From Alphaproteobacteria bacterium (GTDB lineage Bacteria; Pseudomonadota; Alphaproteobacteria; RF32; CAG-239): a stretch of DNA of 64,000 bases. The notes below the pieces were generated by a model. It had not been told where the DNA came from, ran no database searches, and was given only the letters and a program-made list of their open reading frames with translations. Positions within the stretch are counted from its first letter, which is position 1; the number at the start of each line of letters is the position of its first letter. Location of the stretch: NCBI GenBank assembly GCA_017484225.1, contig JAFUTN010000008.1, forward strand, positions 7,440-71,439, read 5' to 3'. A program made the position numbers and the translations under genes. Shown piece by piece: positions 6,176-62,150 of this stretch.

Positions 6176-6397
6176 AGAGTGAGCTAAAAACTCACTTCAG
6201 GGCGTGACAACCCTTTGCAAAAAATCAGTCGTTATAAAACGACTTTTAATTGTATGCCGATTTCGCATGTTGTTGTGTGCGGATGTCGGTGTTATAAGGC
6301 TTAAAGCACGAAATCGCCGAGCCGTTTTGATTTTTTGCACGGTTTGTCAACATCCGCCCACCATTTTAGGTGGCTTTTTTGTTAACTTTTTTAATTA
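6176..6397 (+). promoter_or_regulatory. Structured 5' leader RNA L1 (candidate attenuator / riboswitch-like element) of LRR paralog 1
   Basis: Aligns end to end with the leader of the 15220..15969 paralog, with compensatory stem changes, a 45-nt near-identical core (6279..6323) and a 3' terminator. The start is estimated from the promoter. Confidence 0.55.
6356..6380 (+). terminator. Intrinsic terminator inside leader L1
   Basis: GCCCACC-ATTTTA-GGTGGC followed by TTTTTT, located about 20-35 nt upstream of the candidate start codons. Confidence 0.55.
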
Positions 6398-7396
6398 ATG
6401 AAAAGGATGTTAAACATGAAATTTTTGCATAATAGTATTGTTGTCAGCTGCAGCTTAATGTTTTGTTTTTCGGTCAGGACAGAGGCAAGTATCATAAGTT
6501 GTATAAACGGAACAGATGCTGACGGAAAAGCCTGCGAATCATGCGGGGAAAATTGTAATTGGACTTTTGATACCGAGAGCGGAAAACTCAATATTTCCGG
6601 AAGCGGAAAAATGAATGATTACAACGGTTATTGGGATAAAGAGAACAAAGTTTATGTGTCAGATACTCCTTGGAGCGAATACAAAAGAAAAATAAAATCT
6701 GTAGACGTCCAAGGCGTAAGTAATATAGGAAATATGGCTTTTTTCGGCTCAAACGGCTCTCTTGAATCGTGTAATATCGCCGACACGGTGACAGATATCG
6801 GTAAAGGTGCTTTTTACTCTGCAAATCTGAAAAATATTGTATTACCGGAGTCTTTAGAAAATTTACGGGAATCTGCATTTGAATATTCCGGTTTGATTTC
6901 TGCAATAGTTCCGGATTCCGTGAAAAATATGGATGGAAGAGTTTTTGCTTATAATAAAGGTCTTGTGTCGGTGGTTATTCCCGACACATTAACCGAGATT
7001 AAACCTTGGGGAACACTCGGATTAGACTATAACAATATACAGATTATCTGTAAAGGAACCGAAAGTTCCTGCGCCCGCTTGGCAAGTAAAGTTGAAGGAC
7101 TCGGTTATAATATGGATAATTTCGTTACGGCAGATGCTCAATATTGCACCGGCAGCTACATATATGACGAAAACGGGTGTCACAAACGCAATGAAAATCA
7201 ATGCAATGATACGGAAAATTATTATTACAACGGAAAGACTTGCGTGTATCGTCCGTCAAGTGGCGAAATTAAATGTGAAAACTCCGGTTTTTATGCCGGT
7301 TACGGGTATTGTTACCGTGTTCGCTACACAATGGAAGAAGCAAACTCGGCAACGAGTGATGATACGGAGAATATGATTGAATGGATTTTTGAATAA
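6398..7396 (+). CDS. Secreted BspA-type leucine-rich-repeat / Cys-rich protein, IEWIFE-tail family, paralog 1
   Basis: Signal peptide. Motif CNWTFDTESGKLNISGSGKM. LRR_5-like repeats (IGNMAF, IGKGAF, VLPESL, IPDT). Cys-rich spacer. Shared tail RYTMEEANSATSDDTENMIEWIFE. The start may be the ATG at 6416, which has a better SD. Confidence 0.8.
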   Translation: MKRMLNMKFLHNSIVVSCSLMFCFSVRTEASIISCINGTDADGKACESCGENCNWTFDTESGKLNISGSGKMNDYNGYWDKENKVYVSDTPWSEYKRKIKSVDVQGVSNIGNMAFFGSNGSLESCNIADTVTDIGKGAFYSANLKNIVLPESLENLRESAFEYSGLISAIVPDSVKNMDGRVFAYNKGLVSVVIPDTLTEIKPWGTLGLDYNNIQIICKGTESSCARLASKVEGLGYNMDNFVTADAQYCTGSYIYDENGCHKRNENQCNDTENYYYNGKTCVYRPSSGEIKCENSGFYAGYGYCYRVRYTMEEANSATSDDTENMIEWIFE

Positions 7397-7407
7397 AGGT
7401 TAAGACT

Positions 7408-7443
7408 AAAAAAAGGCGCTCAAATCAGAGCGTCTTTTTTTTA
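7408..7443. terminator. Bidirectional intrinsic terminator between paralog 1 and pal
   Basis: A-run, GGCGCTC-AAATCA-GAGCGTC, then a T-run, between convergent genes. Confidence 0.8.
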
Positions 7444-7469
7444 TTTTAATTCAAACTAATCTGTTCAAA

Positions 7470-7934
7470 TTATTCAGCAGAACTGATAACCGTAACTGCA
7501 CGGCGGTTTTGAGCCCAAGCTGCTTCATTGCTGCCGAGAACAGCCGGTCTTTCTTTACCGTAAGAAATTGTAGAAATTCTGCTTTCATCAATACCGCGAG
7601 ATACTAAGTATTGTTTAACAGCATTGGCACGGCGTTCACCCAAAGCCAAGTTGTATTCACGAGTACCTCTTTCATCGCAGTAACCTTGAACGATGGCATT
7701 AACATTTTCATGCTTGCTCAACCATTCAACTTGAGTGTCCAAAGCAGCAGTAGCTTCAGCAGAAAGTGCAGAACTGTCAAATGCAAAGAATACTGTATCT
7801 GTTGCGTTTTCAGCAAAGTTACGAGCTAATCTTGATTCGCAATCAGCACCACTGAACAAACCACCGTCAGCACCGAACATAGAGCAGCCTGACAAGCAAA
7901 CAATAGCGCAGAATAAACTTAAAAGTTTTTTCAT
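7470..7934 (-). CDS. pal: Peptidoglycan-associated lipoprotein (OmpA family)
   Basis: Lipobox LSGC. The OmpA-like C-terminal domain contains FAFDSSAL...GYCDERGTREYNLALGERRA. Confidence 0.9.
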   Translation of the reverse strand: MKKLLSLFCAIVCLSGCSMFGADGGLFSGADCESRLARNFAENATDTVFFAFDSSALSAEATAALDTQVEWLSKHENVNAIVQGYCDERGTREYNLALGERRANAVKQYLVSRGIDESRISTISYGKERPAVLGSNEAAWAQNRRAVTVISSAE

Positions 7935-15219: not shown

Positions 15220-15927
15220 TTACTCAAAAATCCACTCAATCATGTTTTCGTTATCGTTACTGGTTGCCGCATCCGCTTCCGGTAAAGTGTAACGTGTGCG
15301 CATGCAAAACCCATAATATGAAGTGTATTCTGCATAACAACTACTTATGCAACCAACTCCCGCTTGCACGAATTTTTCTCCGCAATTTCCGCAGTCTCCG
15401 GTTTTTCGGCAGTTTGATAATTTTGAAGCAACAAAAGTATCTCTATTACTGGCTGCAATCGTATCCGGACCATAGATAATACCATCCGGAATACCGACAT
15501 ATTCAAGCTTTGCTGTTTCCCCGAAAGCGATACCGCCTATTTCCTGCACATTAGGTAAATCAATACTTTTAAGGGAACGTGCGGCAAAAAATGCAGCATC
15601 ACCGACACGGGTTATATTTTCCGTTCCCGTTATATCTTGCAATCTGGAGGCATCTTTAAAAGTTCTGGCTCCAATACTGGTAACATTCCCTTCAATAACG
15701 GCATGGACAATGTTTTTGCTTACCCATGGTGCTGTAGATGATACACCGCCATCTAAATAATCGTAATCAGCCATTTCGCCACTACCGGAGATGGTTAAAG
15801 TCTTACTTGTCTCATCATAAACGCATTTTACGTTTTCTCCATAATTTCCGTTTGCATCTTGTTTTCCGCAATTCCATGTTTCGGCTTTTACTTTATCTAA
15901 AGCAGACAGTAAAACCAGAAAAACCAA
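15220..15927 (-). CDS. BspA-type LRR / Cys-rich protein, IEWIFE-tail family, paralog 2. The signal peptide is interrupted by an in-frame TAG, so this may be a pseudogene.
   Basis: LTISGSGEMADYDY, repeats IGARTF/VGDAAF/IGGIAF, tail RYTLPEADAATSNDNENMIEWIFE. The tracked ORF starts at a TTG. In the same frame upstream lies ATGAAAAGGATG... (15969), homologous to the paralog 1 start, then TAG at 15931..15933. Confidence 0.7.
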   Translation of the reverse strand: MVFLVLLSALDKVKAETWNCGKQDANGNYGENVKCVYDETSKTLTISGSGEMADYDYLDGGVSSTAPWVSKNIVHAVIEGNVTSIGARTFKDASRLQDITGTENITRVGDAAFFAARSLKSIDLPNVQEIGGIAFGETAKLEYVGIPDGIIYGPDTIAASNRDTFVASKLSNCRKTGDCGNCGEKFVQAGVGCISSCYAEYTSYYGFCMRTRYTLPEADAATSNDNENMIEWIFE

Positions 15928-15969
15928 GCTCTAGAATCTTAAATGTATCATTTCAAACATCCTTTTCAT

Positions 15970-16183
15970 TAAAATTAAACCAATAAAAAATCCCGTTCAA
16001 AAACGGGCGGATGTTAGTAAACCACAATTAAGCAAATGGCTCGGCGATTTCGTGCTAAAGCCTTATAACACCGACATCCGCTCAACAAAATGAACGAATT
16101 ATCGGTTAAAACCTATAATCGCATAAACTGCGATGCTTAATTGAAGGGTTACTACGCCCTGAAGTGTGTTTTTTCACACTCTA
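15970..16183 (-). promoter_or_regulatory. Structured 5' leader RNA L2 of LRR paralog 2
   Basis: Homologous to L1 over its whole length, including the 44-nt core at 16081..16038. Stems are conserved through compensatory or wholesale stem replacement. Confidence 0.55.
15984..16007 (-). terminator. Intrinsic terminator inside leader L2
   Basis: Minus strand: CCCGTT-TTTG-AACGGG, then A and TTTTTT. Confidence 0.55.
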
Positions 16184-17160: not shown

Positions 17161-17247
17161 GCGGCCATGGCGGAATTGGTAGACGCGTAACGTTGAGGTC
17201 GTTATGAATGTATGTTCGTGGAAGTTCAAGTCTTCTTGGCCGCACCA
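17161..17247 (+). tRNA. tRNA-Leu (anticodon GAG), type II with a long variable arm, CCA encoded
   Basis: Acceptor GCGGCCA/TGGCCGC; D arm GCG-GAATTGGTAGA-CGC; anticodon stem TAACG/CGTTA with loop TTGAGGT; T arm GGAAG-TTCAAGT-CTTCT; then ACCA. Confidence 0.9.
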
Positions 17248-20338: not shown

Positions 20339-21741
20339 GACTTTATCGCCGAAAAAAAGGATTTTTCTACTACTTTTCCAGATTGCTACGCTTGAGTGTT
20401 GCGGCAGTTGTTTGTTGGTATGCGGCAGAAACTTTGCTTGAGAAGAAAATTAATACCGAAAAAATTTATCAGGAATCGGCATTTAAAAATAAAAAGATGA
20501 ACGTTCAGGTTAAAGAAATTGAATACAAAAATCTGAAGGCTTATTTGTTTGAAGAACACAGTAATCCCATTATTGCCGTTGATTTTTTGTTTCGGCATAC
20601 CGGATATGCTTATGACAAAAAAGGTAAGTTCGGACTTGCATTGTTGACGGCAAAAATGCTTACCAACGGTGCCGGTGAGTATGATGAAACACAATTTGCT
20701 TCCGTTTTGGAAGAAAACGGAATTAAAATGGGCTTTGATGTAAATGTTGATGATTTCGGCGGCAGTTTGGTTACTACCACGGCGAATGCTGATATGGCAG
20801 TGAATTTGTTGAGAAAAGTGTTGTATGAGCCGAAACCGAGCGAAGATTCTTTATCTCTTCTTAAAGATAAGGCATTGCTGGCATTGCAGCGTCAAAAAGA
20901 CCATCCGCAAGGGGAATTGAATCTGTTATATCAAGAAAAAATTTATCAGGAACATCCGTATTCTCGTAATCCGTTAGGGGAAGCTGAAGATATAAAACGC
21001 ATAACAATCGGTGATATTGAACAGTTTATTGCGGATAATCTGACATCCGACCGTTTGATTGTGGCCATTGCCGGTGATGTTAATGAAAACGAAGCGGTTG
21101 AAATGCTTAAAAATATGTTTGCGGATTTGCCGGAACAAGGTTTACGGCAATCTTTGGAAAAATTTGAAGTGAAAAATGACGGTAATATCGTTAATGCCGA
21201 GCGCAAAATGCCGCAAAGTATTGCTAAAATTGCTGCAAACGGAGTATATCGTGATGATAAAAATTTTTATCCGCTGTATATGGCAAATTATATTTTCGGC
21301 GAATCCGGTTTAACGTCCCGTTTGTCAAAAAATATACGTGAAGAAAAAGGTTTGACCTATGGGGTATATACATACCTGACAATAAAGGATTCCGCAGCTT
21401 TGATAGAGGGCGGTTATTCCGTGGCTCCGGAGCATGCAAAACAAGCGGCCGATTTATTTAAGGCAGAGTGGGTGAAAATGGGCGAAAACGGTGTTACCGA
21501 GGATGAACTGCGCCAAGCAAAAAATTCGCTGATAGCCTCTATTAATTTGCGCTATGCAGATATTGATGCTGTTGCATCTGTTTTGTTGTCAATGCAAAAA
21601 TTTAATTTGGGATTGGATTTTTTGCAGAAAAGAAATGAATATATTGAGAATGTTACGTTAAACGAAGTTAACAATGCGGCAAAAATTTATTACGGTTCTT
21701 TGCCTGATTTTGTGACAATCGGTTCAAGTGAGGAGAAATAA
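20335..21741 (+). CDS. M16 family peptidase-like protein (non-catalytic partner)
   Basis: M16 fold-like sequence without HxxEH. There is a 4-nt overlap with the upstream M16 gene. Confidence 0.75.
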   Translation: MRLYRRKKGFFYYFSRLLRLSVAAVVCWYAAETLLEKKINTEKIYQESAFKNKKMNVQVKEIEYKNLKAYLFEEHSNPIIAVDFLFRHTGYAYDKKGKFGLALLTAKMLTNGAGEYDETQFASVLEENGIKMGFDVNVDDFGGSLVTTTANADMAVNLLRKVLYEPKPSEDSLSLLKDKALLALQRQKDHPQGELNLLYQEKIYQEHPYSRNPLGEAEDIKRITIGDIEQFIADNLTSDRLIVAIAGDVNENEAVEMLKNMFADLPEQGLRQSLEKFEVKNDGNIVNAERKMPQSIAKIAANGVYRDDKNFYPLYMANYIFGESGLTSRLSKNIREEKGLTYGVYTYLTIKDSAALIEGGYSVAPEHAKQAADLFKAEWVKMGENGVTEDELRQAKNSLIASINLRYADIDAVASVLLSMQKFNLGLDFLQKRNEYIENVTLNEVNNAAKIYYGSLPDFVTIGSSEEK

Positions 21742-36575: not shown

Positions 36576-37430
36576 TTATTCAAAAATCCACTCAATCGTG
36601 TTTTCGTTATCGTTGCTTGTGGCTTCATCTGCTTCCGGTATGGTATAGCGAATACGGTTGCACCAACCGCCGGAATTTCTGCAGGTATCACAACATTTGC
36701 GCTTGCTTACATCCGGTTCGCGGACACAATCGGCTCCGTTCCAAAAGTGACTTACGGAAGAATTGCATTGAATATCTGTCGCTTTTTCAACTTTAACATC
36801 CGGCATACACACACGTTCATACATATTTGGGTCACATGTTCCGCCGGCAGCGGTGCTGACGAATCTTTTTATTTTATCTCGGCAAATCGTAACATCTCCC
36901 AAACAACGGAAAATCTCAATTTTATTGCTTCTGTCGTTAAAAGCATCAATGTGCCAATCTTGGATGTTACTTTGGTCAGAAATAATAATTTCTTTTGTTG
37001 CTCCGTGTGTCCGAAAAGCATCTTGCCCTACGTAAGTAACCGTTTCGGGAATATAGACGGATACAAAAGAATCGGTATCAAAGGCTCTGTCTTGTATTGT
37101 GGTGACAGAACTTCCTATATTGATGTCTCTGATTTTTTTGTAGTCTCGGAAAAGTGCATAACTTACGTTGTTAACTCCCTGTATATCCACGGAAGTGATT
37201 TTGTTTTTATAGTCTTTCCATGGTTGGTTTTCCGTCCAAATATTATTATTAACGGTAACATACTTATCTATATTTCCGCTTCCGCTGATACTGAGTTTTC
37301 CTTGTGAATCCACACTCCATAAACACGTTCCGGCCGAATTGCATGTTCCGCTGTCTGCAATATCGGCCCGAGCGATATCGGTAGAATATGAAAACAACAA
37401 TACTATCCCGAACACTAACATTTTTCTCAT
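36576..37430 (-). CDS. Secreted BspA-type LRR / Cys-rich protein, IEWIFE-tail family, paralog 3
   Basis: Trimmed to the ATG at 37430 (MRKMLVFGIVLLF, SD GGAG), because the longer ORF runs through the leader terminator. CLWSVDSQGKLSISGSGN, Cys-rich spacer, tail RYTIPEADEATSNDNENTIEWIFE. Confidence 0.8.
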   Translation of the reverse strand: MRKMLVFGIVLLFSYSTDIARADIADSGTCNSAGTCLWSVDSQGKLSISGSGNIDKYVTVNNNIWTENQPWKDYKNKITSVDIQGVNNVSYALFRDYKKIRDINIGSSVTTIQDRAFDTDSFVSVYIPETVTYVGQDAFRTHGATKEIIISDQSNIQDWHIDAFNDRSNKIEIFRCLGDVTICRDKIKRFVSTAAGGTCDPNMYERVCMPDVKVEKATDIQCNSSVSHFWNGADCVREPDVSKRKCCDTCRNSGGWCNRIRYTIPEADEATSNDNENTIEWIFE

Positions 37431-37688
37431 AATTTTTCTCCACTTTAGTAAATAAAAAAGCCACCGGTTAGGGTGGTCGGGGAGTTGACAAATCATGTTC
37501 AGCATAATGACTATTACGGCCTTTAGCATAACAATGCTTGAACATACGCCGTAATCTCCCCGTCCGAATACGGGGATTTAAAACCAAAAAAGCACCCTGA
37601 AGGGATACCGTTTTGGTATCGCTGAACAAAGAGCCTGTCACAGCCCCGAACCTCTCGGTTCTTCGGATGAAATAAAATTTATCCATCC
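37431..37688 (-). promoter_or_regulatory. Structured 5' leader RNA L3 of LRR paralog 3
   Basis: Shares with L1/L2/L4 the 5' module (hairpin running into TTCGGGGCTGTGACAGGCTCTTTG) and the C-rich box plus terminator at the 3' end. Confidence 0.5.
37454..37476 (-). terminator. Short intrinsic terminator inside leader L3
   Basis: Minus strand: CCACC-CTAACC-GGTGG, then C and TTTTTT. Confidence 0.45.
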
Positions 37689-45273: not shown

Positions 45274-45293
45274 GGCAGAATGATATTTTGTAA

Positions 45294-45327
45294 TCAAAAA
45301 AAACTCCGAAAAATCGGAGTTTTTTTG
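45294..45327. terminator. Bidirectional intrinsic terminator
   Basis: A-run, ACTCCGA-AAAA-TCGGAGT, T-run, between convergent genes. Confidence 0.8.
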
Positions 45328-45339
45328 GTTGTGAATAGT

Positions 45340-45549
45340 TTAATCGGCAATACTGCGGTTCATTGATTCCCACGCTGCTTTAGCTGCTTGACGCTTTTCC
45401 ATTTCAGTCATAGGTTTTTCACCATTTTCAATACGCGACTTGTTAGCATATTCTGCTGCATTTCTGGCAACTTGTTCTTGTGAAACCGGTTCAACCTTAC
45501 CCATGGTTTTGTTCATTGCTTCAGCATTTGTTTGTTTTGTATAAGCCAT
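45340..45549 (-). CDS. Small hydrophilic protein (69 aa), unknown function
   Basis: Good SD (AAGGAAAcagaatATG). Own promoter TTAACA-N17-TATAAA upstream and a terminator downstream. Confidence 0.55.
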   Translation of the reverse strand: MAYTKQTNAEAMNKTMGKVEPVSQEQVARNAAEYANKSRIENGEKPMTEMEKRQAAKAAWESMNRSIAD

Positions 45550-45621
45550 ATTCTGTTTCCTTGTATAAAATTAATCTGTTTATCTTTATAACACATAAAA
45601 TTATTTTTGTTAATATTGTTT

Positions 45622-45650
45622 AAAAAAAAGAACCCCGACGGATGTCGGGG
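45622..45650 (-). terminator. Intrinsic terminator of the GC-rich small transcription unit
   Basis: Minus strand: CCCCGAC-ATCC-GTCGGGG, then TTC and TTTTTTTT. Confidence 0.75.
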
Positions 45651-45679
45651 TAGAGAATGGTGGCGATTGGATGGCAACA

Positions 45680-45961
45680 TCAGCATGCCATGTAGCGATC
45701 TCCCATGATTGGTTTTCGCTGGAGATCACCACTGTGCTGAGCACTGGTGTAGCAACGCTTGCTGGTGCCATAGCCATTGTTTTCCATTGTTGTCAGAGCT
45801 TCTATGCGAAGACGCTCCTGTGCTTCTTCACGGGTGTAGCCGACTTTTACCAGTCGCATTATTTCCAGCGCGTTTGTTGCAGCTACTGACTCCAACATGT
45901 TGTTGTGAATGGCTCTCCCAAACTCTAATGCCTTTTTACGGCCTTCAACATAATTCTCCAT
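45680..45961 (-). CDS. Hypothetical 93-aa protein in a GC-rich, compositionally foreign segment
   Basis: The ORF has foreign codon usage (CTG, GGC, ACC, CGT) and is bracketed by a consensus promoter and a terminator. There is no obvious SD, so coding status is uncertain. Confidence 0.4.
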   Translation of the reverse strand: MENYVEGRKKALEFGRAIHNNMLESVAATNALEIMRLVKVGYTREEAQERLRIEALTTMENNGYGTSKRCYTSAQHSGDLQRKPIMGDRYMAC

Positions 45962-45997
45962 AAACTTAAAAAATTAAATGTTAAACTTATGTCTAAA

Positions 45998-46026
45998 CTT
46001 ATAACATATTGTCCAACTTTTGTCAA
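45998..46026 (-). promoter_or_regulatory. Near-consensus sigma70 promoter of the GC-rich unit
   Basis: Minus strand: TTGACA (46026..46021), N17, TATAAG (46003..45998). Confidence 0.55.
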
Positions 46027-46108
46027 TAGGAAAAATAAAAAAATATTGTATTTATGTGCGGTATTGTTTACAATCGTCACTGAATTTAACAATAAAGGAT
46101 AAGCAAAT

Positions 46109-50352: not shown

Positions 50353-50400
50353 AAAAAAGCACCGAGAAATCGGTGCAATGCAAAAATGGAGCGGATGAGG
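50353..50400 (-). repeat. Direct repeat copy 2: terminator of tRNA-Gly plus the tRNA 3' end
   Basis: See copy 1. The repeat period is 178 nt. Confidence 0.9.
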
Positions 50401-50460
50401 GGAATTGAACCCCCGTTATAAGCTTGGGAAGCTTCTATTCTACCATTGAATTACATCCGC
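50387..50460 (-). tRNA. tRNA-Gly (anticodon CCC), CCA encoded
   Basis: Minus strand: GCGGATG TA ATTC-AATGGTAGA-ATAG; anticodon loop TTCCCAA; T arm GGGGG-TTCAATT-CCCCT; CATCCGC TCCA. Confidence 0.9.
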
Positions 50461-57423: not shown

Positions 57424-57499
57424 AGGGGTATAGCTCAGTTGGTAGAGCATCGGTCTCCAAAACCGAGTGTCGAGAGTTCGAATCTTTCTGCCCCTGCCA
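57424..57499 (+). tRNA. tRNA-Trp (anticodon CCA)
   Basis: AGGGGTA TA GCTC-AGTTGGTA-GAGC; anticodon loop CTCCAAA; T arm GAGAG-TTCGAAT-CTTTC; TGCCCCT GCCA. Confidence 0.9.
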
Positions 57500-60999: not shown

Positions 61000-61280
61000 T
61001 GGTGAAAGAAATTTTTACCAAGAACCCGAAAAAGGGGTTCGGAGCTTTGAACGGCTTTTATAGTGAGCTGTATCGTTAATGATACTGTTAAGTCAGTAAG
61101 ATTTGCTGGCATATTCCCTGATTATAGGAAAATCTATGGTCGGGGTGCTTGTGGTGTATGTCTAGGCATAGTAGCTAAAGACCACAGGAGTCATTTCTCA
61201 CTATATGATTGTTCAACTCTCCGACCGTCCTTTTGAGGCGGATTTTTTATTTTTAAAATTTTGCTTTATTGGAGAAAAAG
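61000..61280 (+). promoter_or_regulatory. Structured 5' leader RNA L4 of LRR paralog 4
   Basis: Hairpin GAACCC-GAAAAA-GGGGTTC running into TTCGGAGCTTTGAACGGC (the same 5' module as L3 and L1). C-box CTCCGACC plus terminator at the 3' end. Confidence 0.5.
61225..61248 (+). terminator. Short intrinsic terminator inside leader L4
   Basis: CCGTCC-TTTTGA-GGCGG (one bulge), then A and TTTTTT. Confidence 0.45.
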
Positions 61281-62150
61281 ATGAAAAAAATTGTGCTGAT
61301 GTTGGGGATAGTGTTGTGCTGCAGGGTTGAGTATGTAAAAGCCGCATGTACTGCAAATTCTGATGAATTTGGAAACAAAAAGTGTCTCACATGGAATCCG
61401 GGGGTGGAAAATAATTGCGGCAGAGGTTGCACATATACTTATGAAAACGGAACGGTAAATGTTGTTGCCTCCGGAAGTTCTCCGAAAATTTCCGAAGGAA
61501 TGTTTTCTCCCCTGTATTATGATGGCGGAATGCCGGTAGAAATTGAACATATTGTTGTTGATGGTAATTTTGAAACAATAGGAAAACATGCTTTTGCCGT
61601 GGCTGGGGCAACAATTTCGGGGAAAAACGGCGAGTTGGTGCTGAATAAATCAGGCTGGAATGCATTTGGAAATGAAACAAACGTTTTGCAAGGAGATATT
61701 GTCATATCAGATTCTGCCGGAACTATGGGACATGGTTATTTGGTTAATACGGTTTTGGACGGCACACTCATAATTCCGGAAAATATAACTTTTTCTTCCG
61801 GACCGTTAAGAGATTTGACTGTAACGAAAAACGGAAAAATATATTGTGCCGTAAAAAATTGTGAGGAGAGATTGCTGGAATCTTGTAATTCTCTGCCACA
61901 GGAAAATGCTAATGGTTATGATTTACGTTCCAGATGTAATAATTCAGTTCAAAAAATCATTGATGCCGGAAAGATAGAAGCATTTCCGGATGGATGTATA
62001 CGAATGTCCGGTGTCGGTTGTCAACAATGTGCCAACAAAAATTATGCATTGGAATACGGCACTTGTTACCGCAAACGCTACACTTTACCGGAAGCGGATG
62101 CGGCAACCAGCAACGATAATGAAAACATGATTGAATGGATTTTTGAGTAA
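61281..62150 (+). CDS. Secreted LRR-like / Cys-rich protein, IEWIFE-tail family, paralog 4
   Basis: Trimmed to the ATG at 61281 (MKKIVLMLGIVL, SD GGAGAAAAAG). CTYTYENGTVNVVASGS, Cys-rich spacer, tail RYTLPEADAATSNDNENMIEWIFE. Confidence 0.8.
   Translation: MKKIVLMLGIVLCCRVEYVKAACTANSDEFGNKKCLTWNPGVENNCGRGCTYTYENGTVNVVASGSSPKISEGMFSPLYYDGGMPVEIEHIVVDGNFETIGKHAFAVAGATISGKNGELVLNKSGWNAFGNETNVLQGDIVISDSAGTMGHGYLVNTVLDGTLIIPENITFSSGPLRDLTVTKNGKIYCAVKNCEERLLESCNSLPQENANGYDLRSRCNNSVQKIIDAGKIEAFPDGCIRMSGVGCQQCANKNYALEYGTCYRKRYTLPEADAATSNDNENMIEWIFE

What the first reader, a model, noticed from the sequence alone, without database searches (positions are those of the whole stretch)
6398..7396. Dispersed four-gene family of secreted BspA-type LRR / Cys-rich proteins with an invariant acidic C-terminal tail ending IEWIFE
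Copies lie at 6398..7396(+), 15220..15969(-), 36576..37430(-) and 61281..62150(+). Each has:
- a Sec-type signal peptide;
- an N-terminal motif (C..W/Y..D/N...G.L.ISG.G, weaker in copy 4) plus IG..AF / IP.S leucine-rich repeats;
- a variable Cys-rich spacer;
- the same last ~28 residues: C-x-R-x-RYT(L/I/M)(P/E)EA(D/N)xATS(N/D)DxENxIEWIFE-stop.

The protein bodies differ in length (about 235 to 332 aa) and barely align. The tail, by contrast, is near-identical at protein level while the DNA differs at synonymous sites (for example GAGAATATGATTGAATGGATTTTTGAATAA against GAAAACACGATTGAGTGGATTTTTGAATAA). That points to selection on the tail rather than recent gene conversion alone.

The tail is acidic and not hydrophobic, so it does not resemble LPXTG, PEP-CTERM, GlyGly-CTERM or an OMP beta-signal. 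The N-terminal signal peptide argues against a classical T1SS substrate. I read it as a candidate new C-terminal sorting, secretion or anchoring tag on a variable surface or secreted protein family. Each copy sits alone between housekeeping blocks.
Basis: partly seen in the sequence, partly recalled or inferred. Interest (0 to 1): 0.8.

Follow-up and report, generated by a model that had tools for sequence, protein, structure and literature searches.

The report
Conserved tail on secreted LRR family
A narrow group of uncultured gut Alphaproteobacteria has expanded a family of exported leucine-rich-repeat proteins that all end in the same ~26-residue peptide, which is uniform within a genome but differs between related genomes, the pattern expected of an address or docking tag read by one shared, still unidentified partner.

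Summary
Four ORFs in the window end in R-x-RYT(L/I/M)(P/E)EA(D/N)xATS(N/D)DxEN(M/T)IEWIFE-stop. Conservation stops at the stop codon, and the tail codons are close to saturated at synonymous sites (pN/pS about 0.06-0.13).

A tail profile finds 350 protein clusters among 1.84 billion representatives. In all 150 listed, the match sits at the extreme C-terminus. All identified sources are uncultured gut or rumen Alphaproteobacteria.

Pfam, NCBIfam, PDB sequences and the literature hold nothing like it.

The tail comes in discrete types: A (IEWIFE), B (VTITFKK) and a rarer IIMTFKVNR. Every multi-copy contig carries one type only. Yet protein bodies of the same orthogroup carry A in one genome and B in another. 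So the tails change together within a genome, independently of the bodies.

AlphaFold leaves the tail undocked. I read it as a helix-turn-strand docking or sorting peptide bound by one genome-encoded partner. That partner and the pathway are not identified.

Corrections: copy 2 read from 15969 has an in-frame stop, and copy 4 has no Pfam LRR_5 hit.

New: every full-length family gene checked is preceded by a covarying three-way-junction leader RNA with a terminator. It resembles C4/sRNA-Xcc1 only below threshold.

The parts
6398..7396 (+). Copy 1: exported BspA-type LRR / Cys-rich protein of 332 aa. Type A tail at 7316..7396.
   Evidence: ORF. Pfam LRR_5 E 2.7e-18. Tail HMM E 3.4e-19. The nearest body relative outside its own species is type B P0122, 53% identity over 294 aa.
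15220..15927 (-). Copy 2: 235-aa ORF starting at TTG. Type A tail at 15220..15300. Read from 15969 or 15963, it has an in-frame TAG at 15934..15936, so it may be a pseudogene or have a truncated signal peptide.
   Evidence: Pfam LRR_5 E 8.9e-11. Tail HMM E 4.3e-22.
36576..37430 (-). Copy 3: 284 aa (start MRKM). Type A tail at 36576..36656.
   Evidence: Pfam LRR_5 E 1e-10. In the AF2 model the LRR body has pLDDT about 90 and the tail 51 falling to 34. Foldseek best hits are LRR_5 structures 4h09, 4fs7, 6mlx and 4cp6.
61281..62150 (+). Copy 4: 289 aa from ATG 61281 (or 293 aa from TTG 61269). Type A tail at 62070..62150. The body is a divergent family member with no Pfam hit.
   Evidence: It is homologous to LRR_5-bearing members (E 1.5e-16 to 5e-79). 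AF2 mean pLDDT is 84.5, with a tail helix at 269-277 followed by disorder. Foldseek is only weakly LRR-like. Its orthogroup mixes A and B tails.
6274..6380 (+). Leader RNA of copy 1 (class I). Three-way-junction core at 6274..6362, then a hairpin plus T-run at 6357..6380, 18 nt before the start codon.
   Evidence: Alignments. Consensus fold. R1 hit of 22.4 bits. Rfam sub-threshold matches to sRNA-Xcc1 (27.6 bits) and C4 (24.8 bits). Coordinates.
15985..16085 (-). Leader RNA of copy 2 (class I). Core at 16003..16085, hairpin plus T-run at 15985..16007.
   Evidence: 23.4 bits; sRNA-Xcc1, 23.1 bits.
37454..37567 (-). Leader RNA of copy 3 (class II). Core at 37473..37567, hairpin plus T-run at 37454..37476.
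   Evidence: (100.4 bits).
61136..61248 (+). Leader RNA of copy 4 (class II). Core at 61136..61228, hairpin plus T-run at 61225..61248.
   Evidence: (90.9 bits).
7408..7442 (+). Intrinsic-terminator-like hairpin plus T-run directly after copy 1, indicating a monocistronic unit.
   Evidence: RNAfold gives -23.3 kcal/mol for the 80 nt downstream of the stop codon. Coordinates.

Best explanation
**What it is**
The tail is a 26-27-residue C-terminal docking or sorting peptide. It is attached to a very large, lineage-specific family of Sec-exported, disulfide-rich, mostly BspA-type LRR proteins. The family is found in a narrow clade of uncultured gut and rumen Alphaproteobacteria.

**Anatomy**
- It begins right after the last conserved cysteine and a basic R/K-x-R/K.
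- Next comes an N-capped short helix ([YW]-T-P/x-x-E-A...).
- Then an Asp/Asn turn (D-x-N-x-N).
- Then an amphipathic beta-strand (h-x-h-x-F).
- It ends in 1-4 charged or polar residues: E in type A, KK or RK in type B, KVNR in a third type.

**Proposed mechanism (inferred, not shown)**
1. The protein is exported by Sec and folds in the periplasm.
2. The free, flexible tail is bound by one genome-encoded partner, probably by beta-strand augmentation with the helix packing alongside.
3. The partner could be a receptor, an outer-membrane export component or an anchor. It delivers or tethers all family members in the same way.

**Shown**
- The tail exists and is always C-terminal.
- It is under purifying selection.
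- It has no predicted intramolecular docking.
- It has discrete types, one per genome, independent of body phylogeny.

**Inferred**
- That a trans-acting partner exists.
- The binding mode.
- The cellular destination.

**Gene organisation**
Each gene is a separate unit with its own structured leader RNA and terminator.
For: **Always C-terminal**
A tail profile finds 350 clusters at E<=1e-3 and 154 at E<=1e-10 among 1.84e9 representatives. Every one of the 150 listed matches ends at the last residue or within 3 residues of it.

**Selection acts on the peptide**
pS is 0.55-0.76 against pN 0.035-0.09 among window paralogues. Conservation ends at the stop codon.

**Not an intramolecular element**
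- Two AF2 models have confident bodies (pLDDT about 90) but undocked tails (pLDDT 34-58), with only a short helix.
- No body column discriminates tail type (maximum MI 0.39 of 0.98 bit).

**Concerted evolution**
- Multi-copy contigs are pure in tail type.
  - Scanned directly, type A: window 4, L001 2, L003 2, L004 2, L091 3, L093 2, L095 2.
  - Scanned directly, type B: L006 4, L099 4.
  - Inferred from shared contig length: three more pure type B contigs and one more pure type A.
  - P is about 9e-6 under random assignment.
- Each window copy's nearest body relative outside its own species is type B (39-53% identity), against 25-35% to its own type A paralogues.
- Tail type needs 36 changes on the body tree. 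Label shuffles give a mean of 50 and a minimum of 39.
- 12 of 24 clusters at >=50% identity mix A and B.
- The orthogroup alignment places the switch right after ...R-Y-T.
- Type A and type B genomes are close relatives: LpxI 83% and LpxB 73% identity.

**Exported proteins**
125 of 158 members have a signal-peptide-like N-terminus, and the median is 12 Cys.

**Nothing known matches the tail**
Against: - No partner, receptor or dedicated secretion gene was found. Neighbours are housekeeping genes and none recurs.
- The tail rides mainly on one architecture: LRR_5 in 113 of 149 members. It could be a family-specific functional end, for example a ligand- or oligomer-binding peptide, rather than a general sorting signal.
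- Purity per genome plus mixed orthogroups could also arise from repeated gene conversion of tails within a genome followed by drift. In that case selection for uniformity would be only implied.
- Low AF2 confidence for a short tail is weak negative evidence.
- Localisation is entirely untested, and the organisms are uncultured.
- The type B purity rests on few genomes: L006, L098 and L099 all come from one assembly, GCA_045602545.1.
Confidence: 0.55

Rival explanations
1. The tail is an integral structural element of each protein, such as a C-terminal cap of the Cys-rich module or a strand that completes its own fold. It would be conserved for folding, not for recognition by another molecule.
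For: It follows directly after the last nearly invariant cysteine. It is mostly tied to one architecture. The invariant skeleton Y-T..E-A..N..F looks like a small folding motif.
Against: - Both AF2 models leave it undocked at low confidence while the bodies are confident.
- It is far more conserved than any body region.
- About a dozen residues switch together between A and B without any co-varying body column.
- Bodies of one orthogroup tolerate either tail.
Confidence: 0.12
2. The uniformity comes from DNA-level homogenisation: gene conversion, or a recombination or cassette system for antigenic variation, with the 3' end as a conserved recombination flank. The peptide itself would have no special role.
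For: - All paralogues in a genome share one tail type.
- Tail-only ORFs and a split gene exist (P0003, P0004, P0006).
- P0004 lies next to integrase-bearing islands.
- A spread of the A or B variant among about 30 or more orthogroups probably did involve conversion at some stage.
Against: - Synonymous sites in the tail are close to saturated among paralogues, while amino acids are nearly invariant (pN/pS 0.06-0.13).
- Similarity ends at the stop codon, and there is no conserved 5' flank within the coding region.
- Each copy has its own leader, signal peptide and, for copy 1, a terminator, so these are expressed genes and not silent cassettes.
Confidence: 0.08
3. The tail's terminal strand is a beta-signal-like element that engages BAM, or pairs with an outer-membrane barrel by strand complementation. 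This would be a specific version of the partner hypothesis that tethers the LRR protein to the outer membrane. In type B, the C-terminal Lys might instead be cross-linked to peptidoglycan as in Lpp.
For: - The pattern h-x-h-x-F is shared by all tail types.
- Two window OMPs also end with an aromatic residue plus two more residues (porin ...GLEFNI, PagP ...RFQFKL).
- About 60% of the 137 newly listed tails, roughly 87% of the type B ones, end in K. From prior knowledge, Lpp ends in ...YRK.
Against: - Other OMPs on tail-bearing contigs end canonically in an aromatic residue (OprB ...LTLFF, autotransporter ...LRVIW).
- The tail always carries 1-4 charged or polar residues after the Phe.
- The passengers are soluble solenoids, not barrels.
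- Type A has no Lys anywhere in the tail, and some type B variants end in M, L, I or NR. Lys cross-linking therefore cannot be the shared mechanism.
Confidence: 0.15
4. The tail is a C-terminal signal for a one-step or coupling-protein-dependent secretion system, either T1SS or T4SS. A VirB8-like gene occurs near two family genes.
For: A VirB8-domain gene lies between two tail genes in L001-L003. From prior knowledge, T1SS and T4SS signals are C-terminal, and the type A tail is acidic with hydrophobic residues near its end, like Dot/Icm E-block signals.
Against: - N-terminal Sec signal peptides and a median of 12 cysteines argue for periplasmic folding.
- From prior knowledge, T1SS and T4SS signals are loosely conserved, whereas this tail is nearly invariant.
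- Charge is not conserved between types A and B.
- No T1SS or T4SS operon lies next to any copy, and the window has none.
Confidence: 0.05

Closest known systems
BspA-type leucine-rich-repeat surface proteins (Pfam LRR_5, PF13306; e.g. structures 4h09 and 4fs7, T. pallidum TpLRR 6mlx, pneumococcal PcpA 4cp6)
   Same: Copies 1-3 and 113 of 149 family members pass LRR_5. The copy 3 model superposes best on LRR_5 structures. The N-terminal motif C..W..D..G.L.ISG.G.M.DY forms the beta-strands of an N-terminal cap ahead of the Pfam-matched repeats.
   Different: From prior knowledge, known BspA-type proteins are anchored by T9SS CTDs, LPXTG, choline-binding repeats, lipidation or transmembrane segments. 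This family instead has a Cys-rich spacer and a 26-aa hydrophilic tail with no counterpart in Pfam or NCBIfam.
C-terminal protein-sorting signals (LPXTG/sortase, PEP-CTERM/exosortase, GlyGly-CTERM/rhombosortase, T9SS CTD)
   Same: Strictly C-terminal, shared by many paralogues of a genome, lineage-restricted, and attached to exported surface-type proteins.
   Different: There is no hydrophobic transmembrane segment and no basic stop-transfer cluster. The tail is not an 80-aa beta-sandwich. No NCBIfam sorting-signal model matches. No cognate sortase-like gene was identified, and the passenger range is narrow.
Dockerin-cohesin type docking (cellulosomes)
   Same: By analogy: a conserved C-terminal module on many different secreted proteins. 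From prior knowledge, its sequence is species-specific and co-evolves with one receptor. Here all paralogues of a genome share one tail type.
   Different: From prior knowledge, a dockerin is a module of about 70 aa with duplicated Ca-binding loops. This tail is 26 aa with no Pfam Dockerin hit, no cohesin-like partner is known, and the organism is a diderm.
C4 antisense RNA (RF01695) / sRNA-Xcc1 (RF02221): for the leader RNA, not the tail
   Same: - A closing stem with two hairpins, and the signature GCCG..CGGUUUGYCAAC followed by the 3' strand of P1.
- Full-length (1-87/87) matches of three class I leaders to sRNA-Xcc1, and of two of them to C4.
- Multi-copy per genome, as reported for sRNA-Xcc1 homologues in Xylella (PMC12189769).
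- C4 is a proteobacterial and phage antisense RNA (PMC2864571).
   Different: - Scores of 21-28 bits lie well below the gathering scores of 45 and 53.
- Class II leaders give no such hit.
- Here the RNA sits as a leader directly upstream of chromosomal exported-protein genes, not in prophages or integrons.

Membership tests
BspA-type LRR (Pfam LRR_5) | Pfam PF13306 match above the gathering score (27.7 bits) | tested here: met
   Copies 1-3 score 66.5, 42.2 and 42.0 bits. Copy 4 has no hit, so the criterion is not met for that copy. 113 of 149 family members match.
BspA-type LRR (Pfam LRR_5) | LRR_5 solenoid fold | tested here: met
   The copy 3 model best matches 4h09 (E 2e-4, prob 1.0), 4fs7, 6mlx, 4gt6 and 4cp6. 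Copy 4 is inconclusive, with 4fdw at E 0.033 and 4h09 at E 0.1.
LPXTG / PEP-CTERM / GlyGly-CTERM type sorting signals | Signature motif followed by a hydrophobic transmembrane helix and a basic cluster at the C-terminus | tested here: not met
   The last 26 residues are hydrophilic and contain no run of hydrophobic residues. No NCBIfam sorting-signal model matches at E<=1.
T9SS C-terminal domain | A C-terminal beta-sandwich of about 70-100 aa matching the Por_Secre_tail models | tested here: not met
   No Pfam or NCBIfam hit on the C-terminal region. The conserved unit is only about 26 aa and is predicted as a helix followed by a disordered end.
Outer-membrane protein beta-signal | The C-terminal strand of a beta-barrel ending in an aromatic residue as the last residue | tested here: not met
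   The Phe is followed by 1-4 charged or polar residues in every tail type. The bodies are LRR solenoids. Canonical OMP ends are found on other tail-bearing contigs (...LTLFF...LRVIW).
T1SS / T4SS C-terminal secretion signals | Substrate recruited from the cytoplasm, with no cleavable Sec signal peptide | tested here: not met
   Signal-peptide-like N-termini occur in all four copies and in 125 of 158 members, and the median is 12 Cys.
Lpp-type peptidoglycan attachment | A C-terminal lysine as the cross-linked residue | tested here: not met
   The window's type A tails end in E and contain no Lys. Most type B tails do end in K, but variants end in M, L, I or NR.
Dockerin | Pfam Dockerin_1 match with duplicated Ca-binding segments | tested here: not met
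   No Pfam hit on the tail at E<=1. The tail is too short, at 26 aa.
C4 antisense RNA / sRNA-Xcc1 (leader RNA) | Rfam covariance-model score at or above the gathering score (45 and 53 bits) | tested here: not met
   Class I leaders score 21-28 bits and class II leaders give no hit. The architecture is similar, but membership is not established.
C4 antisense RNA / sRNA-Xcc1 (leader RNA) | Antisense pairing of the RNA with a target in the downstream mRNA | tested here: inconclusive
   The best leader-to-initiation-region duplexes are no better than shuffled controls (mean z -0.33 over 19 genes). Other targets were not examined.

The most novel reading that the evidence does not exclude
The tail is the address tag of an undescribed envelope pathway in diderm Alphaproteobacteria. 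That pathway would export or tether folded, disulfide-bonded periplasmic proteins by binding a short hydrophilic C-terminal helix-turn-strand peptide, and its receptor would co-evolve with about a hundred substrates per genome. In addition, the family would be governed gene by gene by C4-like leader RNAs of three classes, allowing selective or mutually exclusive expression of a variable adhesin repertoire.
Probability: 0.2. Interest if true: 0.85.

Novelty: new variant of a known kind. Interest (0 to 1): 0.65.

Why it matters
If the tail is a sorting or docking tag, it defines a new way for diderm bacteria to place folded, Sec-exported proteins at or beyond the outer membrane. It does so in gut and rumen Alphaproteobacteria, a group about which very little is known.

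The family is very large: 350 clusters at 50% identity, and about one gene per 5-16 kb in the tail-bearing stretches examined. It probably dominates the surface or secreted proteome of these organisms and so their interaction with the host or with other microbes.

The two or three mutually exclusive tail types give a built-in genetic handle. The partner should be the gene that is present only in tail-bearing genomes and splits the same way.

The leader RNA adds a second untested element, a structured, covarying, multi-copy cis-RNA.

Tried and rejected
1. **GTDB species-representative genomes, type A family patterns.** Six pattern matches, none confirmed. With LpxB as a neutral anchor, the loci returned from related alphaproteobacterial MAGs, together with more distant bacteria (L011-L090, about 1.3 Mb, LpxB identity 72% and lower), held no tail ORF and no body homologue. 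The positive control recovered 20 known cases.
2. **JGI metagenome contigs.** A type B alignment gave nothing. A validated DNA pattern also gave nothing. The lineage is visible only in ENA and NCBI assemblies.
3. **Tail profile against PDB sequences.** Only chance-level helix matches, E above 0.7.
4. **Literal motif search in the literature.** Only OCR noise. A search on BspA plus Alphaproteobacteria gave nothing relevant.
5. **Co-variation of body columns with tail type.** No signal. The alignment was very gappy, so this is a weak negative.
6. **Recurrent neighbour genes as partner candidates.** None found. The unannotated window ORFs next to the copies are a multi-pass membrane protein and a lipoprotein with no family hit.
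7. **OMP beta-signal resemblance.** Only partial.
8. **Leader P1 3' strand as an anti-Shine-Dalgarno element.** Duplex energies were no better than shuffles.
9. **Rfam at gathering thresholds.** Only three tRNAs in the window.
10. **A remnant copy beside LpxI, where type B contig L006 has a tail gene.** None seen at 45274-46108, by reading the sequence and in the six-frame tail scans.
Full report
**1. Observation**

The four ORFs exist and end in IEWIFE-stop. In the four-way protein alignment, 21 of the 31 invariant columns fall in the last 24 positions (R-x-R-Y-T..E-A..A-T-S-x-D-x-E-N-x-I-E-W-I-F-E). The bodies are 25-35% identical.

At the DNA level, similarity stops exactly at the stop codon, and synonymous differences are scattered through the tail. 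Nei-Gojobori counts over the 23 tail codons give pS 0.55-0.76 and pN 0.035-0.09 among the window paralogues. The peptide, not the DNA, is what is conserved.

A tail HMM over all six-frame ORFs finds these four copies in the window and no others.

Copies 1-3 pass Pfam LRR_5, and copy 4 has no Pfam hit. Copy 4 is nevertheless sequence-homologous to LRR_5-bearing members. Its AF2 model is confident (pLDDT 84.5), but its fold search is only weakly LRR-like. The copy 3 model superposes best on solved BspA-type LRR_5 structures.

One correction concerns copy 2. The intact ORF starts at TTG 15927 and lacks the charged N-region of the signal peptide, so this copy may be a pseudogene.

The gene context is housekeeping throughout: Pal, FtsI, MraW, YidC, RnpA, LspA, PGI, MutL, AcrAB, ParC/GyrA-type topoisomerase, RecO, KdsA, PagP, LpxI, LpxB, ComEC, NusG and a XerC/D-like recombinase. 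The organism is a diderm with LPS and about 40% G+C.

**2. Distribution**

Homologue searches and an exhaustive profile search show that the tail is not confined to this genome. There are 350 clusters (at 50% identity) with E<=1e-3 and 154 with E<=1e-10 among 1.84 billion representatives. In all 150 listed, the match ends at the last residue or within 3 residues of it.

All named sources are uncultured 'Alphaproteobacteria bacterium' MAGs or ruminant, animal and human gut metagenome assemblies.

The clade is narrow:
- With LpxB as a neutral anchor, related gut and rumen alphaproteobacterial MAGs (LpxB identity 72% and lower) showed neither the tail nor the protein family in their flanks (positive control passed).
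- Direct scans of the species-representative genomes and of the JGI contigs found nothing.

Within tail-bearing contigs the density is about one gene per 5-16 kb (window 4 in 64 kb, L006 4 in 21 kb, L099 4 in 21 kb, L091 3 in 21 kb). That suggests on the order of a hundred copies per genome. This figure is an inference, and most of the loci were ascertained through a family member.

Of 149 members, 113 have LRR_5. The rest are mostly Cys-rich or unassigned bodies. 125 of 158 have a signal-peptide-like N-terminus, and the median is 12 cysteines.

**3. Is it known?**

- Pfam and NCBIfam give no hit on the tail for either type, at E<=1.
- A tail profile finds nothing in PDB sequences.
- Literal motif searches of 8 million papers find nothing.
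- The tail has no hydrophobic segment, so it is not an LPXTG, PEP-CTERM or GlyGly-CTERM type signal.
- It is too short, and unmatched, to be a T9SS CTD or a dockerin.
- It is not a canonical OMP beta-signal, because 1-4 charged or polar residues always follow the Phe and the passengers are solenoids.

**4. The key result: discrete tail types that switch in concert**

The tails fall into three types:
- Type A: R-x-RYT[LIM]PEAD[AE]ATS[ND]DNEN[MT]IEWIFE.
- Type B: RIRYTPAEAAxVLKDDNTNEVTITFKK.
- A rarer third type: ...KDTDNEIIMTFKVNR.

A few intermediates exist. The shared skeleton is [YW]-T-(P/x)-x-E-A ... D-x-N ... h-x-h-x-F. Charge is not conserved.

Every contig with two or more copies carries one type only:
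- Scanned directly, type A: window 4, L001 2, L003 2, L004 2, L091 3, L093 2, L095 2.
- Scanned directly, type B: L006 4, L099 4.
- Inferred from shared contig length: three more type B contigs and one more type A.

Random assignment would give this with P of about 9e-6.

The bodies do not follow tail type:
- With the last 32 residues removed, each window copy's nearest relative outside its own species is a type B protein: W1-P0122 53%, W2-P0153 49%, W3-P0009 48%, W4-P0146 39%. Identity to its own type A paralogues is only 25-35%.
- On a body-only tree, tail type needs 36 changes. Label shuffles give a mean of 50 and a minimum of 39.
- Half of the clusters at >=50% identity mix A and B.
- The alignment of copy 4's orthogroup shows bodies aligned up to ...C-x-R-x-R-Y-T and then either tail.
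- Type A and type B genomes are close relatives: LpxI 83%, LpxB 73% and ComEC 54% identity in a syntenic block.

So many paralogue lineages predate the A/B split, and all their tails changed together within each genome lineage. No column outside the tail co-varies with tail type. Two AF2 models leave the tail undocked: a short helix, then an end with pLDDT below 50.

**5. Interpretation**

The simplest reading is that all paralogues of a genome must fit one partner encoded elsewhere in that genome. The tail would then be a docking or sorting peptide.

The anatomy is an N-capped helix, an Asx turn and an amphipathic strand, always at a free C-terminus. That suggests binding by beta-strand augmentation, which is inference.

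Whether the partner exports the proteins, anchors them at the outer membrane or retains them in the periplasm cannot be decided here. No candidate gene recurs next to the copies. Gene conversion probably helped spread a new tail type among paralogues. It cannot explain the present state, however, because synonymous sites have since diverged while the peptide stayed fixed.

The rival readings are weighed in the Rival explanations section. They are an intramolecular cap, a recombination flank, a BAM or OMP strand or Lpp-like Lys linkage, and a T1SS or T4SS signal.

**6. An additional feature found on the way: a structured leader RNA**

All four window copies are preceded by a structured leader of about 85-100 nt followed by a hairpin plus T-run, 15-60 nt before the start codon. 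The same holds for 22 of 22 full-length family genes with upstream DNA in the first loci examined, in both type A and type B genomes. The tail genes of L098 and L099 that have upstream DNA also carry one.

The architecture is a three-way junction:
- a closing stem P1;
- P2 with an inner hairpin;
- P3;
- the conserved UUUGYCAAC.

There are three sequence classes: I (GCGGAUGUC...), II (GGGGAG...) and III (GGAAGG...).

For class II:
- 97.6% of cells pair, against 31-52% in slid controls.
- 9 pairs carry double compensatory changes, including 7 of the 8 pairs in P2.
- 0 of 500 shuffles reach the observed value on four of the five measures, and 23 of 500 do on the count of further pair types.

A covariance model of class II was run over 1.55 Mb:
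- It finds all class II leaders at 91-106 bits, including an untrained one.
- It finds class I and III leaders weakly but at full length.
- It finds nothing in loci L011-L090, which lack the family, and nothing elsewhere in the window.

Weak hits of 19-20 bits also precede a type IV pilin-like gene (L098) and duplicated small ORFs (L006).

Rfam at gathering thresholds finds nothing. In permissive mode, three class I leaders give full-length matches to sRNA-Xcc1 (23-28 bits) and two of them to C4 antisense RNA (21-25 bits). These are well below the gathering scores of 53 and 45, and class II gives none.

C4 is a proteobacterial and phage antisense RNA (PMC2864571). sRNA-Xcc1 homologues are multi-copy and annotated alongside C4 and IsrK (PMC12189769).

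A test of the idea that the 3' strand of P1 sequesters the ribosome-binding site was negative (mean z -0.33). The leader is therefore an attenuator-type leader or a co-transcribed small RNA, and its mechanism is unknown.

**7. Verdict**

Novelty: a new variant of a known kind (C-terminal docking or sorting tags), with no sequence relative among described signals. Interest 0.65.

Noticed in passing
window 6274-6380(+), 15985-16085(-), 37454-37567(-), 61136-61248(+); also upstream of tail genes in L001, L003, L004, L006, L007, L091, L093, L095-L099: Every full-length tail gene checked is preceded by a covarying three-way-junction leader RNA followed by a hairpin plus T-run. There are three sequence classes. 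It is absent from related genomes that lack the family. Class I leaders resemble sRNA-Xcc1 and C4 antisense RNA only below the Rfam thresholds.
   Followed up: partly
It may be a pseudogene, or it may restart at TTG 15927.
   Followed up: yes
window 6200-6213(+), 37632-37646(-); similar motifs about 60-90 nt upstream of leaders in L001, L003, L004, L006, L091, L093 and L095: A further conserved short hairpin or palindrome (AGGG-CGTGACAA-CCCT and variants) lies upstream of the leaders. It could be an operator, a promoter element or part of the transcript.
   Followed up: no
L001 4806-4955, L002 3568-3717, L003 8620-8769; L004 9461-10159: Tail-only ORFs of about 50 aa without a signal peptide occur (P0004). 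In L001 and L002 they are followed by different integrase-bearing islands, which suggests a remnant at an integration hotspot. In L004 a family gene is split into a 160-aa LRR ORF and a 52-aa tail ORF (P0003).
   Followed up: partly
P0206, P0211, P0218, P0254, P0271 (no window coordinates): A third tail variant, ...RYTPAEAAEVLKDTDNEIIMTFKVNR. Intermediates between A and B also exist (P0076 ...AAAATSDGNTNVVTITFKK; P0184 RYTPSEANELTSNDNENMIEWIFE).
   Followed up: partly
L098 7008-7087 upstream of 7139-7825; L006 20998-21082(-) upstream of 20362-21012: Weak leader-like hits (19-20 bits) precede a type IV pilin-like gene (prepilin-type N-terminus G|RSMIEMLGVLAIIGIL) and tandemly duplicated small ORFs (MKFKKYDDITPSNRT...). 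The leader regulon may therefore extend beyond the tail family.
   Followed up: partly
window 45274-46108 compared with L006 9690-11269: In the type B relative, a tail gene (P0020) sits next to LpxI. At the syntenic place in the window there is no tail gene in about 830 bp. The family's loci therefore turn over between close relatives.
   Followed up: partly
L093/L094 3255-6659(-): A 1134-aa gene product carries both LptF/LptG and LptD Pfam families, which would be an unusual fusion if the gene call is right.
   Followed up: no
window 17161-17244(+), 50390-50460(-), 57424-57496(+): Three tRNA genes are the only Rfam matches at gathering thresholds in the window.
   Followed up: no
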